Notes: generated by a model from the letters alone, not told the origin. A stretch of DNA of 64,000 bases from a phage (GCA_024875585.1 GCA_024875585.1_4107.1), one strand, 5' to 3'. Numbered from the stretch's first letter, positions 50,763 to 64,000 are shown. Program-made: numbers and translations.

Positions 50763-50992
50763 TACTGACAGAACTAGAAATGTATCATAGATTTAATAAG
50801 TACTATCATTTACTTAAGCCTATACAGAGGATTAAATGTCCATTTGAAGAGAAACAGGTATTAATTTATGAGCATAAGTTATTTGTATCATTAGGTACGA
50901 ATGAACAAGAGTATTATTTGAAGTTGTACTTAATTACTTTAATTGAATTGATTAATCACAAAACACAGAAAGCTAAGAAATCTAAAAAATGA
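50756..50992 (+). CDS. family L small protein
   Basis: motif SLGTNEQEYYL. Confidence 0.6.
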   Translation: MLVLTELEMYHRFNKYYHLLKPIQRIKCPFEEKQVLIYEHKLFVSLGTNEQEYYLKLYLITLIELINHKTQKAKKSKK

Positions 50993-51327
50993 AAACTAAT
51001 ATTCAACTCAAGGTATACATATCTTATGAATCTATATACATCAAATGCAGTCTATGTAAAGATGTAATGGATTATAAAGGTAAGCCATTCACAATTACTT
51101 ACAGTCTAACAGGAGGCTTTTATATATCTTTTGTTGATTACGAAAATAAAATATACAAGCACATTGATATTAAAGATTTAAGTACCTTGTCAGATGAGGA
51201 ATACTTTCAAGAATCATTAGTATGGGATTTAGAGTTTCCTATGACATTAGTACACAAAATGATAGTACTAATGAAAGAAACTAAACCTGAGCCGAGTGGT
51301 TATGAAGAATTCATTATTGAGTATTAA
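50989..51327 (+). CDS. family B protein (112 aa) interleaved in family L array
   Basis: motif DEEYFQESLVWD. Confidence 0.6.
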   Translation: MKTNIQLKVYISYESIYIKCSLCKDVMDYKGKPFTITYSLTGGFYISFVDYENKIYKHIDIKDLSTLSDEEYFQESLVWDLEFPMTLVHKMIVLMKETKPEPSGYEEFIIEY

Positions 51328-51339
51328 GAGTACTGATAT

Positions 51340-51555
51340 ATGAAAAGATTATCATACAAAGATTACAGTAAACTTATCAGTACTTTACAACCAGAAATTA
51401 GAAGAATTAATTATCTTCCTATACCCAACGAAGAACGTGTAGTACTGAAAAATGAGTTAATATTAAAACGCACAGTAGGTACTAACTATCAAGATAATAG
51501 TGTTTGCGATTTAATTAGAGGGTTAATGATCACAATAAAGGCCAAGTGCTATTGA
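51340..51555 (+). CDS. family L small protein
   Basis: motif TVGTNYQDNSV. Confidence 0.65.
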   Translation: MKRLSYKDYSKLISTLQPEIRRINYLPIPNEERVVLKNELILKRTVGTNYQDNSVCDLIRGLMITIKAKCY

Positions 51556-51561
51556 CAGTAC

Positions 51562-51590
51562 TTGACGGAGCTTTTCATTACTGATATAGT
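51562..51590 (+). promoter_or_regulatory. sigma70-like promoter TTGACG-N17-TATAGT
   Basis: internal promoter within the array. Confidence 0.45.
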
Positions 51591-51619
51591 ACACTAACGT
51601 TAATCATAGGGTAGAAATT

Positions 51620-51865
51620 ATGTTAAAATTTTTAAATTTCCTTATCGTCTTGTGTATTGTTCTTGGGATTGCACCGTTTGTACTGGTGTATATGGATTCA
51701 GATGAAATGCAAAAGATGAATTGCACAAAGACGGGACAGAGTAGAGAAGAGACGATTCTTATGCCTGTTACTGTTATTGTTAATAATATGCCCATTACAA
51801 ACATGGTCCCTACCCTAACGACAACGTACCAGTACTCTTGTACAGACGGGGAGAGGTGGAGATGA
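51620..51865 (+). CDS. small protein with N-terminal hydrophobic segment (81 aa)
   Basis: MLKFLNFLIVLCIVLGIAPFVLVYM looks like a signal peptide or TM helix. Confidence 0.5.
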   Translation: MLKFLNFLIVLCIVLGIAPFVLVYMDSDEMQKMNCTKTGQSREETILMPVTVIVNNMPITNMVPTLTTTYQYSCTDGERWR

Positions 51866-52182
51866 AATTTAATATAGCAAAAACATCGAATGTATGTATA
51901 TTTGGTTATGCAGAAGAGTTAGGTGATATTGACATTCTTTTGTACAAAAAGGATGGTGTTATGCATTTCAAGTACCAGGATGAAGAGGCAGACAATTATC
52001 TTTTGCCTAATTTAGTACAAATGCAGGAAGAGGAATTATTCCAGTACAGCTTAGTATATGACATTGATATTTGCACGATGCCAGTACTAATTAATATTCA
52101 AAAAGTGATGCTCGATGTGTTTGATAGGCTAATACAAGGCACACAAGGAAGAACCATATATGTCAATGTACAAGACAATTAA
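51862..52182 (+). CDS. family B protein (106 aa)
   Basis: motif EELFQYSLVYD; ATG after SD GGAGAGGTGGAG (track start 51838). Confidence 0.6.
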   Translation: MKFNIAKTSNVCIFGYAEELGDIDILLYKKDGVMHFKYQDEEADNYLLPNLVQMQEEELFQYSLVYDIDICTMPVLINIQKVMLDVFDRLIQGTQGRTIYVNVQDN

Positions 52183-61490: not shown

Positions 61491-61978
61491 TGTCGTTACA
61501 AAGTGCATTAAAAGAAGCAAAGAAAATCCATGAGTACATGATTATGGTACAAGAAGGTTCAGTCCCAGGTGTGTATAAAACATCTGATACTGAATTTTTT
61601 GTAAAAGACCGTGACGATTATGATGAGTCAGAGATATGTGCAGAAACGTTAGTACTGCACACTGATACTGGTGATAGTGATAACTGTGAATATCATATGT
61701 ACAATCAGTACATTAGTTATTGCCGTAATGAAGATATTACCATCTACAACACAGATATTGATGCTGATGACACTATCATTCCGTATTCAGTACTGGAAGG
61801 TCCGTGGGATAGTGAAGGGTATTACTTTCAGAATAGTACTATCTACAATGAAGAAGAACTGGATGTTATTGTGATTATGTGGTACTTTAAAAGTATTGAC
61901 TCCAGTAGTTTCTATTTTGATTATGAATATGTAGAGAATACAGTAGGAGAAGGTAATGTCATTACAAAGTGCTCTTGA
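61490..61978 (+). CDS. family B protein, MSLQSAL subfamily (162 aa)
   Basis: motif EGYYFQNSTIYN...MWYFKS. Confidence 0.65.
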   Translation: MSLQSALKEAKKIHEYMIMVQEGSVPGVYKTSDTEFFVKDRDDYDESEICAETLVLHTDTGDSDNCEYHMYNQYISYCRNEDITIYNTDIDADDTIIPYSVLEGPWDSEGYYFQNSTIYNEEELDVIVIMWYFKSIDSSSFYFDYEYVENTVGEGNVITKCS

Positions 61979-62402
61979 AAAAGCAAAAGAAATACATGGA
62001 TACTTTGAAGATATAAAGGCAGGAAAGTTCAAAGAAGTATACAAAGCCGAGAACGGTAACTACTACAAAGATGAAATATATAATAATTCCGTTGGTGTAA
62101 GGGTTATTCTTGAGTTGAATTCCAATAGTCCTGTGTCGTTTTCTGAATACAATAGAGATGCAGAATTCATTAGTTATGTTGAAAATGGTAGCATTCGTTT
62201 TATTAATAGACAAAAACCATTAATTTTGAATTATGAAGTTCTGGATGGTCAGTGGGATAATGAAGAGTATTACTTCCAAAACAGTACTGTATACGACGAT
62301 GAAGTACTTGAAGCATTAGTTATTATGTGGTACTTCAAGAGTATTAACTGTCCTCGATTTTATTTGGATTTCGAAGAACTTGGTAAAGATCCAGAGGTAT
62401 AG
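61956..62402 (+). CDS. family B protein, MSLQSAL subfamily (148 aa)
   Basis: motif EEYYFQNSTVYD...MWYFKS. Confidence 0.65.
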   Translation: MSLQSALEKAKEIHGYFEDIKAGKFKEVYKAENGNYYKDEIYNNSVGVRVILELNSNSPVSFSEYNRDAEFISYVENGSIRFINRQKPLILNYEVLDGQWDNEEYYFQNSTVYDDEVLEALVIMWYFKSINCPRFYLDFEELGKDPEV

Positions 62403-62403
62403 A

Positions 62404-62718
62404 ATGAAAAACTTATTCAGTGTTCAGTACGTTCCAGGTGAAATTAGTTTATTGTATCTCTTTGACCATGATAATTCATTATTACTAGTAGTAAAGAAAT
62501 GTCAAGCTAGTTCGTTTGTTGAATACATTCACGATAATGAATATATACCTGATTTTTTAGAGTGCGATTATTACGATGATCATGAATCATTTATTTTTCA
62601 GGAATCGCTAGTATGGGACAAATCGATTAACTTCTTTACGTTAATTGAATTACAAAAGCAAGTGAAGTATCATTGGGATTATTTAATTACACAGGATTAC
62701 ATTGAGATAGAAATATAA
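62404..62718 (+). CDS. family B protein (104 aa)
   Basis: motif ESFIFQESLVWD; ATG just after upstream stop (track start 62380). Confidence 0.55.
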   Translation: MKNLFSVQYVPGEISLLYLFDHDNSLLLVVKKCQASSFVEYIHDNEYIPDFLECDYYDDHESFIFQESLVWDKSINFFTLIELQKQVKYHWDYLITQDYIEIEI

Positions 62719-62960
62719 TGACTAAAAATGAATTTGATTCACTTTGTACTGTTTATAATTCATTAACAGAAATACCTAACTTTATTAGTTATATTTCAGC
62801 TTTAAATCACATTATGCATAGTTTTGAACAATCGTTTGAAGAGAAATATGCTGGAAGAAAAGTTCTATGTCATATGCCAATGTACTTAGGAGATGGTGAG
62901 CCTTACACTACAAGTACTACATGTGAAATAAAAAATATAATATATTATTGGGTACTATAG
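62718..62960 (+). CDS. hypothetical small protein (80 aa)
   Basis: TAATG-coupled ORF. Confidence 0.45.
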   Translation: MTKNEFDSLCTVYNSLTEIPNFISYISALNHIMHSFEQSFEEKYAGRKVLCHMPMYLGDGEPYTTSTTCEIKNIIYYWVL

Positions 62961-63021
62961 AATTCACAGTATCCAATGGCGGTAGTTATATGTACTTTAG
63001 AGATGGAGTGGTTGAATTATT

Positions 63022-63471
63022 ATGAGTTACGAAAGTGCAATCAAGAAAGCAAATGATATTCTACGCGTCGTTCAATTCTTCAAAGAAAATCCTGAATACG
63101 TAGATGATAAAAACCAAGAGCACGATGAGAGATTGAGACGAAAAATTATCTCTTTATTTGACACTAATAAAGATAATTGGAGTCTAATTGAGTTAGCATA
63201 CGATTATATTTCATTGAACCGAAATGATGATGTAGTTAAGATAGAAAGGCATGAGTCAGAAGAATCTTTTAGAATTTCAGATATTTTATCCCTGAGTACT
63301 GAAGAAGGGTACTTCCAGGGTAGCACTCTTTATAATGAAGAAACACTTGACAATCTATGCACATTCAGTGTAATATATCAGAAATCTGTACTAGATATAT
63401 TTTATCTTGACACTGCTGAACTGCATACCCTAACCAATTTTGTTACTACCGAAGAGGCTACATTCGAGTGA
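63022..63471 (+). CDS. family B protein (149 aa)
   Basis: motif EEGYFQGSTLYNEETLD; N-terminus MSYESAIKKAND. Confidence 0.6.
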   Translation: MSYESAIKKANDILRVVQFFKENPEYVDDKNQEHDERLRRKIISLFDTNKDNWSLIELAYDYISLNRNDDVVKIERHESEESFRISDILSLSTEEGYFQGSTLYNEETLDNLCTFSVIYQKSVLDIFYLDTAELHTLTNFVTTEEATFE

Positions 63472-64000
63472 TGAAAGTTAACATTAATGACTTTGATGCA
63501 TTACAAGATTTATCAAAAAAGATTCGCACCATCGTACCAGTACTTAAAAAATGCAGTACTGGTTTAATCGATCCTAGTTCTGTTGTCAATGAGAAGTACA
63601 ATTTTCATCGTGTATTACAGGGGACAGGTGCATTTCAGAAGTGTGAGGTACGTGAGAAACATGTAATTGATACATCGTTGTTTTCTATTGGTGCACCTGT
63701 GTCAAACAATACTATTTTCCTGGATGCCGCTGGAAATATTCAACAATTAACATTTAAGAAAAGGAAAAAGAATAATAACATTGGTGTGTACGAGATGAAG
63801 TGGGGACAGCCAGAGTTGATGCGTGACATTCACATTCCTAAGTACAATTTCAATGCATTTGAAGAACAGTGTTTTCAACTTTCTTGTACTGACCCTGACT
63901 ATGCTATCATTCAATTCTATATGGAATTGCAGATTGCATTTAATAGTAATTTGTATATTAACTTATTGGCAATGAACATAGATGAAGTATTCAAAAACAT
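63471..64000 (+). CDS. family B-like protein, 3' end beyond window (partial)
   Basis: ATGA-coupled ORF open to window end; motif EEQCFQLSCTD. Confidence 0.5.
   Translation, partial: MKVNINDFDALQDLSKKIRTIVPVLKKCSTGLIDPSSVVNEKYNFHRVLQGTGAFQKCEVREKHVIDTSLFSIGAPVSNNTIFLDAAGNIQQLTFKKRKKNNNIGVYEMKWGQPELMRDIHIPKYNFNAFEEQCFQLSCTDPDYAIIQFYMELQIAFNSNLYINLLAMNIDEVFKN

What the first reader, a model, noticed from the sequence alone, without database searches (positions are those of the whole stretch)
50989..64000. Second expanded family (family B, about 21 genes) with an invariant (D/E)ExYFQxSLVxD-like motif that resembles a Gln-specific protease site
At least 21 genes of 100-240 aa share an acidic stretch followed by [YLFW]-F-Q-x-S-(L/T)-(V/I)-x-(D/N), e.g. 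EEYYFQQSTVYN, EELFQQQLVID, EEGYFQGSTLYN. A recently duplicated subfamily (60096..62402) also shares the N-terminus MSLQSALEKAKKIHEYM and the C-terminal ...GPWDSEEYYFQ..(V/I)..EEVLD...MWYFK. One gene (59002..59730) carries the module twice, and the family runs past the window end. Several copies fit E-x-x-Y-x-Q-(G/S), the potyviral NIa/TEV protease site pattern. This is most likely coincidental, but a conserved processing or recognition site is worth testing. With family L this makes a contiguous paralogue arsenal of nearly 19 kb.
Basis: partly seen in the sequence, partly recalled or inferred. Interest (0 to 1): 0.8.

Follow-up and report, generated by a model that had tools for sequence, protein, structure and literature searches.

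The report
Jumbo-phage gene family with FQ helix
A giant E. coli phage keeps a tandem array of 20-40 diverged copies of a small acidic protein of unknown function. All copies share an "EE-x-x-FQ-x-S" signature, which is a confidently predicted helix of the fold and not a protease cleavage site.

Summary
The window comes from a ~350 kb Rak2-like jumbo coliphage (Asteriusvirus; 96% identical to UE-S1). It holds 22 genes with 23 modules of one family: 21 genes in 50989-64000, counting a partial gene at the window end, plus an outlier at 14248-14898. The array continues beyond the window. 121Q has at least 40 members over ~28 kb, and the distant Salmonella phage 7t3 has a syntenic array of ~19.

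Q is invariant in every intact member. F has one known exception.

The signature is [S/T/D]-E-E-x-[Y/L]-F-Q-x-S-[L/T]-[V/I]-[Y/F/H]-[D/N]. In two AlphaFold models it lies in an alpha-helix (pLDDT ~95-97) in the middle of a small sheet-plus-helices domain. The would-be P1' residue is the most variable motif position (G/S/A in 15 of 152). The TEV pattern fits 6 of 152. No NIa-like protease was found. The cleavage-site reading is therefore not supported.

The proteins are acidic (median pI 4.5), absent from the phAPEC6 virion proteome, under purifying selection, and lie in a region rich in sigma70-type promoters. They match no Pfam, NCBIfam or PADLOC family, only unannotated PHROGs, and no solved fold convincingly.

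Best reading: a lineage-specific early accessory family, probably binders of host proteins. That function is inferred, not shown.

The parts
50989..51327 (+). FQ-family member, 112 aa, minimal single module (…SDEEYFQESLVWD…)
   Evidence: HMM E=1.9e-19; motif
51562..51590 (+). sigma70-type promoter (TTGACG-17-TATAGT, TG extended -10) in a 306-nt gap
   Evidence: 29/29 identical in UE-S1, 26/29 in 121Q
51838..52182 (+). FQ-family member, 114 aa from TTG 51838 or 106 aa from ATG 51862 (…QEEELFQYSLVYD…)
   Evidence: HMM E=1.4e-16
53321..53878 (+). FQ-family member, 185 aa (…DEAGVFQQSLITK…)
   Evidence: HMM E=1.4e-17; phrog_19795, unknown function
53868..54170 (+). FQ-family member, 100 aa (…SDEELFQQQLVID…)
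   Evidence: HMM E=1.3e-14
54483..54980 (+). FQ-family member, 165 aa (…TEEWWFQQNLVHD…)
   Evidence: HMM E=1.3e-15
54968..54989 (+). intrinsic terminator-like hairpin followed by a T-run, at the end of one transcription unit inside the array
   Evidence: UE-S1 annotators mark a terminator at the equivalent place
55006..55034 (+). near-consensus sigma70 promoter (TTGACA-17-TATCAT with TG), followed by AAGGAGG and the ATG at 55061
55061..55594 (+). FQ-family member, 177 aa (…GEDVYFQYSTVHC…)
   Evidence: HMM E=5.2e-19
55591..56136 (+). FQ-family member, 181 aa (…QEEEYFQMQLVHA…)
   Evidence: HMM E=5.2e-17
56114..56737 (+). FQ-family member, 207 aa (…DVDAFMFQLSLVQD…)
   Evidence: HMM E=5.9e-15
56908..57456 (+). 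FQ-family member, 182 aa (…TEESYFQQSLITA…)
   Evidence: HMM E=4.7e-16
57453..57809 (+). divergent FQ-family member, 118 aa (…EDEAARFQYETIYEN…)
   Evidence: aligns with F and Q in register; its UE-S1 orthologue scores E=0.0035
57819..58367 (+). FQ-family member, 182 aa (…SDESLFQYSTMYD…)
   Evidence: HMM E=3e-17
59002..59730 (+). two-module fusion gene, 242 aa (…DEAALFQESLVFD… and …NEAELFQASLVFD…)
   Evidence: two HMM domains. The junction …NLGERVMEFDF… corresponds to separate genes 365-368 in 121Q
59727..60086 (+). FQ-family member, 119 aa; the protein modelled at pLDDT 89 (F71, Q72 in helix 67-76)
60096..60578 (+). FQ-family member, 160 aa, 'MSLQSALEKAKK…' subfamily; modelled, with the motif in helix 107-113
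60580..61050 (+). FQ-family member, 156 aa, same subfamily
   Evidence: HMM E=1.1e-25
61047..61490 (+). FQ-family member, 147 aa, same subfamily
   Evidence: HMM E=1.8e-24
61490..61978 (+). FQ-family member, 162 aa, same subfamily
   Evidence: HMM E=7.9e-29
61956..62402 (+). FQ-family member, 148 aa, same subfamily
   Evidence: HMM E=6.5e-29
62380..62718 (+). FQ-family member, ~105-112 aa (…DHESFIFQESLVWD…)
   Evidence: HMM E=1e-9
63022..63471 (+). FQ-family member, 149 aa (…STEEGYFQGSTLYN…); the only window copy fitting the TEV pattern
   Evidence: HMM E=3.2e-17
63471..64000 (+). partial ORF running off the window; divergent member (…FEEQCFQLSCTD…), orthologue of UE-S1 gene 332
   Evidence: missed by the HMM, so assigned from the motif only
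14248..14898 (+). outlying FQ-family member, 216 aa, basic (pI 8.95), module at the C-terminus (…PSDLMFQYSLIHKD…)
   Evidence: HMM E=6.1e-13; pI

Best explanation
This is a lineage-specific, tandemly amplified family of small, acidic, non-virion proteins of Rak2-like jumbo phages.

Each module is a ~100-aa alpha/beta domain. It has a five-stranded antiparallel sheet, then two to three helices, then a final strand that returns to the sheet. Longer members add an N-terminal helix and a variable insert.

The conserved signature is the first helix after the sheet:
- S/T/D at -5 looks like a helix N-cap.
- E-E at -4 and -3 are acidic residues in the first turn.
- [Y/L]-F and then S-[L/T]-[V/I]-[Y/F/H] supply hydrophobic and aromatic residues for the core.
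- Q lies on a conserved ridge (E-3, Q, V/I+4) next to the only variable, presumably exposed, stripe of the helix.

The motif is therefore a fold-defining element, and possibly also a shared functional element, of an intact protein. It is not a processing site.

The genes are transcribed from the + strand in operon-like units. These are probably read early by host sigma70 RNA polymerase. The array changes by unequal recombination between neighbouring copies, which produces duplication, deletion and fusion. Individual copies are kept by purifying selection.

Most likely function (inferred, not shown): a diversified set of cytoplasmic binding proteins for host takeover or counter-defence. A common scaffold would present variable surfaces to different host targets.
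For: Shown here:
- Family and invariance.
- The constraint is on the protein. F uses TTT and TTC, Q uses CAA and CAG, and Ser uses both the AGY and TCN codon boxes.
- Structure: model 2 has pLDDT 89 and pTM 0.83, with FQ at residues 71-72 inside helix 67-76, in sequence blocks with mean pLDDT 95-97. Model 1 puts FQ in helix 107-113, in blocks with mean pLDDT 92-95.
- Conservation: the FQ helix is the most conserved element. The strands and helix B keep only their hydrophobic pattern.
- N-cap-like statistics: -5 is S/T/D in 118 of 152; -4 is E in 114 of 152; -3 is E in 97 of 152.
- Acidity: median pI 4.5 against 6.8 for other ORFs.
- Not virion proteins: none of phAPEC6 gp409c-473c is among the 62 virion proteins.
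- Purifying selection: dN/dS against 121Q is 0.04-0.66 for 18 of 19 orthologue pairs.
- Birth and death of copies: window 22 genes, UE-S1 at least 33, 121Q at least 40; a fusion gene, a truncated copy and an internal-deletion copy.
- Ancient origin: a syntenic array of ~19 members in Salmonella phage 7t3, and members in RaK2.
- Timing: strong sigma70-type promoters are 20 on + against 2 on - across the window. Two lie in the array's few gaps, one of them straight after a terminator. There is no T4-type late motif on the + strand.
- In the related phage CBB, such promoters mark the region its authors infer to be the early host-takeover region (PMC5259590).
Against: - No function is demonstrated. 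No binding partner, expression timing or phenotype is known for any member.
- I could not read model coordinates, so burial of F and Q is inferred from helix periodicity and conservation, not measured.
- Invariance of a Gln across about 170 distinct copies at 12-17% overall identity is stronger than simple packing usually demands. A specific functional role remains open.
- Only two strong promoters serve 13 kb of array, so 'early' rests on region-wide signals and analogy.
- The outlier 14248-14898 is basic, not acidic.
Confidence: 0.6

Rival explanations
1. The FQ motif is a processing site. A Gln-specific (NIa/TEV/3C-like) or other protease cuts after Q and releases N- and C-terminal fragments.
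For: - Q is invariant and is preceded by an aromatic or hydrophobic residue and by acidic residues.
- 6 of 152 unique motifs fit E-x-x-Y-x-Q-[GS].
Against: - The motif lies in a high-confidence helix in the middle of the domain. A cut there would destroy the fold.
- The fusion gene's inter-module junction has no FQ.
- P1' is the most variable motif position and is G/S/A in only 15 of 152.
- TEV NIa-Pro has no tblastn match in 50,697 phage records (low sensitivity).
- The only proteases mentioned in the parts of the related-phage papers I read are a T4-type prohead protease, which from my own knowledge cuts after Glu, and ClpP.
- Family members are not in the virion, where prohead-protease substrates would be.
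Confidence: 0.03
2. The FQ helix is a shared docking element. All paralogues bind one common partner through the conserved ridge (E-3, Q, V/I+4, S+2). The partner would be a host hub such as RNA polymerase, a chaperone or protease, or the sliding clamp, or else a phage protein. The variable sheet and inserts would recruit or block different clients, making an adaptor or decoy library.
For: - Q is invariant and S is nearly so, from two codon boxes, at 12-17% overall identity. This exceeds what packing alone usually requires.
- Everything outside the helix is free to vary apart from its hydrophobic pattern.
- Q-x-S-L-V-[F/Y] loosely recalls bacterial clamp-binding peptides (QL[SD]LF, QLxLxL). 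That resemblance is from my own knowledge and was not tested.
Against: - The motif is helical and mostly conserved around the helix, which suggests intramolecular packing.
- Clamp-binding and similar linear motifs work as exposed, extended peptides.
- No partner is known and no co-varying partner gene was identified.
Confidence: 0.17
3. The module is a small enzyme or ligand-binding domain. The acidic pair, Q and S would form its active or binding site.
For: The conserved polar residues E, E, Q and S cluster in about 8 residues.
Against: - E-4 and E-3 are not invariant (A, G, D, S and P occur). Apart from the initiator Met, no column other than F and Q is invariant.
- Forty paralogues of one enzyme would be hard to rationalise.
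Confidence: 0.06
4. The array is largely functionless filler DNA produced by tandem duplication after capsid enlargement. This is the 'ratchet' idea of Hua et al. 2017. The motif would simply be what has not yet decayed.
For: - Hua et al. interpret a 121Q array of more than 30 similar genes as tandem duplication that expanded the genome (PMC5646251).
- Copy number varies between close relatives, and some copies are truncated.
Against: - Reading frames are intact, and dN/dS is 0.04-0.66 between orthologues.
- Paralogues have diverged to 12-17% identity yet keep the fold pattern and the motif through synonymous codon turnover.
- The array is retained in synteny across distant genera.
Confidence: 0.05
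5. The conserved element is a nucleotide-level signal, such as a recombination, regulatory or RNA motif, rather than a protein motif.
For: The motif recurs every 300-600 nt on one strand.
Against: - Synonymous codons are mixed at every conserved position, including the AGY and TCN boxes for Ser.
- The motif is always in frame within ORFs.
Confidence: 0.01

Closest known systems
[quoted passage not shown] 2017, mBio (PMC5646251)
   Same: This is probably the same array, or the adjacent one. It is a same-strand run of paralogous small genes in 121Q-type phages, interpreted as tandem duplication.
   Different: The paper gives one sentence, with no family definition, motif, fold, selection analysis or function. 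It is unclear whether it means this family (at least 40 copies) or the ~70-aa 'family L'. The copies here are far from 'very similar' (12-17% identity).
PHROGs 13866, 15629, 12674, 9317, 19795, 30978, 31297, 30243, 34359 (all 'unknown function')
   Same: These are the database homes of the same proteins.
   Different: The family is split over more than 10 PHROGs with no annotation. The profile, alignment and structure results here unite them through the FQ helix.
Multigene families of large eukaryotic DNA viruses (ASFV MGF360/505, poxvirus Bcl-2-like and ankyrin families); from my own knowledge, not tested here
   Same: These are lineage-specific tandem expansions of small accessory proteins. 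They show birth-and-death evolution, variable copy number between strains, and host-interaction roles.
   Different: The host domain differs and the folds are unrelated. A host-interaction role is only inferred for the phage family.
Potyviral NIa/TEV and picornaviral 3C cleavage sites (E-x-x-Y-x-Q|G/S; Q|G/S/A)
   Same: Q is preceded by F/Y and acidic residues. A few copies (EEGYFQGS) match the TEV consensus exactly.
   Different: P1' is variable, the context is helical and intradomain, no cognate protease was found, and the system is a bacteriophage.
Small acidic early phage inhibitors and DNA mimics (T7 Ocr, T4 Arn, ArdA); from my own knowledge
   Same: They are small, strongly acidic, cytoplasmic, early-region proteins.
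   Different: There is no sequence or convincing fold similarity. Those are single genes, not 40-member arrays.

Membership tests
NIa/TEV/3C-type protease cleavage site | Gln at P1 | tested here: met
   Q is invariant in all intact members.
NIa/TEV/3C-type protease cleavage site | Small residue (G/S/A) at P1' | tested here: not met
   G/S/A in 15 of 152 unique motifs. This is the most variable position of the core (0.06 bits below position -2); Q, Y, E, L and N are commonest.
NIa/TEV/3C-type protease cleavage site | Site lies in an exposed, extended linker between domains | tested here: not met
   The site is inside an alpha-helix, in blocks of mean pLDDT 92-97, in mid-domain in two models. 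The natural two-module junction lacks the motif.
NIa/TEV/3C-type protease cleavage site | Cognate chymotrypsin-fold Gln-specific protease encoded by the genome | tested here: inconclusive
   tblastn of TEV NIa-Pro against all phage records gave no match (insensitive to remote homologues). The parts of the genome papers I read mention only a prohead protease and ClpP. No whole-genome profile scan was run.
NIa/TEV/3C-type protease cleavage site | Cleavage products observed | not testable with these tools
   This needs proteomics of infected cells.
Tandem paralogue array (multigene family) of a large virus | Many homologous genes adjacent on one strand | tested here: met
   21 genes in 50989-64000, all on the + strand. 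At least 40 in 121Q over 28 kb.
Tandem paralogue array (multigene family) of a large virus | Copy-number turnover between related genomes, with remnants or fusions | tested here: met
   121Q has extra copies. The fusion gene 59002-59730, the truncated 121Q gene 366 and the internal-deletion copy P0079 are examples.
Tandem paralogue array (multigene family) of a large virus | Copies maintained by selection | tested here: met
   dN/dS is 0.04-0.66 in 18 of 19 orthologue pairs. Codon turnover occurs at conserved residues.
Packaged internal or ejected head proteins (T4 IP-like) | Present in purified virions | tested here: not met
   No member of the phAPEC6 region gp409c-473c is in the 62-protein virion proteome.
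Any curated protein domain family (Pfam, NCBIfam, PADLOC) | Score above the family threshold, or a weak hit recurring across members | tested here: not met
   78 members were scanned. Every weak hit occurs in 1 of 78 and lies below the cut-off.
Acidic DNA-mimic anti-restriction proteins (Ocr/Arn/ArdA type) | Strong net negative charge | tested here: met
   Net charge is -4 to -25 and median pI is 4.5.
Acidic DNA-mimic anti-restriction proteins (Ocr/Arn/ArdA type) | Fold or charge pattern mimicking B-DNA, and inhibition of a DNA-binding enzyme | not testable with these tools

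The most novel reading that the evidence does not exclude
The invariant FQ ridge is a common docking surface for a single host or phage hub protein. The ~40 paralogues would then form an adaptor or decoy library that retargets or saturates that hub with many different variable surfaces. This would be a phage counterpart of the multigene host-manipulation families of giant eukaryotic viruses, built on a fold not yet seen elsewhere.
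Probability: 0.12. Interest if true: 0.8.

Novelty: new member of a known kind. Interest (0 to 1): 0.45.

Why it matters
About 7-8% of a 350 kb phage genome, roughly 28 kb and 40 genes, is devoted to one protein family that no database can name. The copies are old, selected and still turning over. That argues against the view that such arrays are mere filler for a large capsid.

The family now has a clear signature, a confident minimal-domain model and obvious mutants to make (F and Q). This makes it a tractable way to ask what jumbo phages do with their hundreds of 'dark' early genes.

The work also removes a tempting but wrong lead, the TEV-like cleavage site.

Tried and rejected
- Protease-site reading: rejected on helix context, variable P1', the motif-free fusion junction and the absence of a NIa-like protease.
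- Known-domain explanations: Pfam, PHROGs, PADLOC and NCBIfam on 10 and then 78 members, plus a PDB sequence profile. All gave nothing recurrent. The single T4_MRH hit (E=0.024) occurs in 1 of 78 members and is treated as noise.
- Link to the neighbouring ~70-aa 'family L' (LGTNYQE): rejected, hhalign probability 0.1%.
- DNA-level motif: rejected by mixed synonymous codons.
- Virion or internal-protein role: rejected with the phAPEC6 proteome.
- The word-indexed homologue search found only close relatives. The exhaustive search found 78 clusters in 1.84 billion representatives.
- Clamp-binding-motif resemblance (Q-x-S-L-V-F against QL[SD]LF): noted from memory and not pursued, because the segment is helical and intradomain.
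- Interspersed non-family ORFs: no functional hits.
- Literature: no transcriptomic or functional study of these genes was found.

Full report
**Source and context.** The window belongs to a Rak2-like jumbo coliphage of the genus Asteriusvirus. Window 59000-63500 is 96% identical to Escherichia phage UE-S1 and 91-93% identical to 121Q, PBECO4, phAPEC6 and others, all about 350 kb. In every annotated relative the genes under the finding are 'hypothetical protein'.

- A regular expression for the core motif gives 20 in-frame hits on the + strand and none on the - strand. Shuffled sequence gives a mean of 0.77 and a maximum of 3.
- An HMM built around the motif recovers 21 window genes at E = 1e-7 to 1e-33. 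One of them, 14248-14898, lies outside the stated range. The HMM also confirms two modules in 59002-59730.
- Gene 57453-57809 is a divergent member.
- The partial ORF at 63471->end carries FEEQCFQLSCTD.
- In alignments of 22 window modules and of 78 diverse members, F and Q are the only invariant internal columns. Mean column identity is 17% and 12%.
- The three representatives that seemed to lack the motif either have it (P0052, P0101) or are an internal-deletion remnant (P0079).
- The one true exception found is a Salmonella phage 7t3 copy with …TEEMYEQLQFIH…, where F became E and Q is kept.

- UE-S1 has at least 33 members.
- 121Q has at least 40 members over ~28 kb. Its array ends a few kb before a DNA methyltransferase gene.
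- Salmonella phage 7t3, a distant relative, has ~19 members in the same position relative to a methylase gene.
- Foldseek against BFVD finds members in Klebsiella phage RaK2, and possibly in Yersinia phage fHe-Yen9-04.
- tblastn with a metagenomic member finds the Munch-type Salmonella phages, Klebsiella phage fENko-Kae01 and Escherichia phage EJP2.
- An exhaustive profile search of 1.84 billion representative proteins finds only 78 clusters. All are 65-215 aa, and every intact one carries the motif. The family therefore appears confined to this phage group.

**What the motif is.**
- Over 152 unique instances the signature is [S/T/D](-5) E(-4) E(-3) x [Y/L](-1) F Q x(+1) S(+2) [L/T](+3) [V/I/L](+4) [Y/F/H](+5) [D/N](+6).
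- Synonymous codons are freely mixed at the conserved positions. Ser is encoded from both the AGY and TCN boxes. Selection is therefore on the protein, not on the DNA.
- The AlphaFold model of the 119-aa member (59727-60086) has pLDDT 89 and pTM 0.83. It has strands 5-12, 15-21, 33-38, 41-47 and 54-59, helices 67-76, 79-82 and 86-102, and a final strand 113-117. F71 and Q72 sit in the middle of the first helix, in sequence blocks with mean pLDDT 95-97.
- The 160-aa member (60096-60578) is less well modelled overall (pLDDT 69). It again puts the motif in a helix, 107-113, in sequence blocks with mean pLDDT 92-95. An extra N-terminal helix and a low-confidence insert precede the core.
- On the model, the FQ helix is the most conserved element. 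The strands and helix B keep only a hydrophobic or aromatic pattern.
- From established helix-capping preferences (my own knowledge), S/T/D followed by acidic residues in the first turn is a classic N-terminal cap. This would explain the 'acidic stretch'.
- By helical periodicity only positions -2 and +1 vary freely, so only a narrow stripe is likely exposed. I could not compute accessibility, because model coordinates are not exposed to the scripting tool.

**Why it is not a cleavage site.**
- The would-be scissile bond is inside a confident helix in mid-domain.
- The residue after Q is the most variable of the motif, and is small in only 15 of 152.
- The TEV pattern fits 6 of 152.
- The natural two-module fusion has no FQ at its junction.
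- TEV NIa-Pro has no tblastn match in 50,697 phage records (a weak negative).
- The parts of the related-genome papers I read mention only a T4-type prohead protease and ClpP.

**What is known about it.**
- No Pfam, NCBIfam or PADLOC family matches. Among 78 members every weak hit occurs once.
- PHROGs splits the family over more than 10 groups of unknown function.
- A PDB sequence profile search finds nothing.
- Hua et al. [quoted passage not shown] A 2026 review repeats this (PMC13282480).
- I found no work on the motif, fold, expression or function of these genes.

**Properties bearing on function.**
- The proteins are acidic: median pI 4.5 against 6.8 for other ORFs, with net charge down to -25. 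The outlier is basic.
- None of the corresponding phAPEC6 genes (gp409c-473c) is among the 62 virion proteins.
- Orthologue dN/dS against 121Q is 0.04-0.66 for 18 of 19 pairs.
- Copy number differs between close relatives. The window's two-module gene arose by deletion and fusion between adjacent 'MEFDFLISVH…' copies that are separate genes in 121Q. 121Q gene 366 is a truncated copy.
- Only 5.8% of the array is intergenic. Two of the gaps hold near-consensus sigma70 promoters that are conserved in relatives. One follows a terminator and precedes a strong Shine-Dalgarno sequence.
- Across the window, strong sigma70-type sites are 20 on the + strand and 2 on the - strand. The only T4-type late motif lies on the - strand at 17178, within the run of - strand RCC1-like virion-protein genes.
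- In the related phage CBB, RpoD-like promoters are concentrated in the block of short hypothetical genes that its authors take to be the early host-takeover region (PMC5259590).
- Early expression is thus inferred, not shown.

**Conclusion.**
- The finding is a real, large, lineage-specific multigene family built on a small alpha/beta domain. Its signature helix explains the motif. The protease reading fails.
- The most likely role is a diversified set of early cytoplasmic binders for host takeover or counter-defence. This is a commitment by inference.
- The unusually strict conservation of Q, and of Ser at +2, leaves room for a shared docking function. That is the most interesting reading not excluded.

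Noticed in passing
window 11426-14206 (+): Eight consecutive ORFs of 104-141 aa look, by eye, like small multi-pass membrane proteins with basic C-terminal tails. They form a third tandem paralogue family, directly upstream of the outlying FQ member at 14248-14898.
   Followed up: partly
window 45121-52608 (+): 'Family L' has 22 genes of 64-96 aa with invariant G, T, Q and L (…LGTNYQE…). Its last members are interleaved with the first FQ members. It is unrelated to the FQ family (hhalign probability 0.1%).
   Followed up: partly
window 14940-21167 (-): Five paralogous 374-449 aa genes on the minus strand are glycine-rich and RCC1-like by eye. They are similar in size and paralogy to the ~41 kDa 'DNA condensation proteins' of the phAPEC6 virion proteome. 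The only T4-type late promoter motif in the window (TATAAATA) lies on this strand at 17178.
   Followed up: no
whole window, + strand: Strong sigma70-type promoter matches (TTGAC[AGT]-N16-18-TA[TG]AnT) number 20 on the + strand against 2 on the - strand. Most lie between 25 and 52 kb. This suggests the whole + strand block of small ORFs is read by host RNA polymerase.
   Followed up: partly
window 51620-51865 (+): An 81-aa ORF with a hydrophobic N-terminal segment (phrog_8826, unknown function) sits right after the promoter at 51562, inside the largest gap of the array.
   Followed up: no
window 56739-56969 (+): A 76-aa ORF between two family members contains …FTDSFQLELLYLN…. It is possibly a degenerate remnant of a family module (phrog_29919, unknown function).
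   Followed up: no
L003 (121Q) 20374-20598; protein P0079: There are decayed copies. 121Q gene 366 starts like a family member (MEFDFLISVH…) but is truncated at 74 aa. P0079 is a 79-aa internal-deletion derivative lacking the motif region.
   Followed up: partly
L004 (Salmonella phage 7t3) 22645-23181: This is the only intact family member seen without F. It has …TEEMYEQLQFIH…, with F changed to E and Q retained.
   Followed up: yes
protein P0019: A partial family member is deposited as a protein of Actinomadura adrarensis. Several others are labelled Escherichia coli on ~350 kb contigs. These are most likely phage DNA in bacterial assemblies rather than bacterial genes.
   Followed up: no
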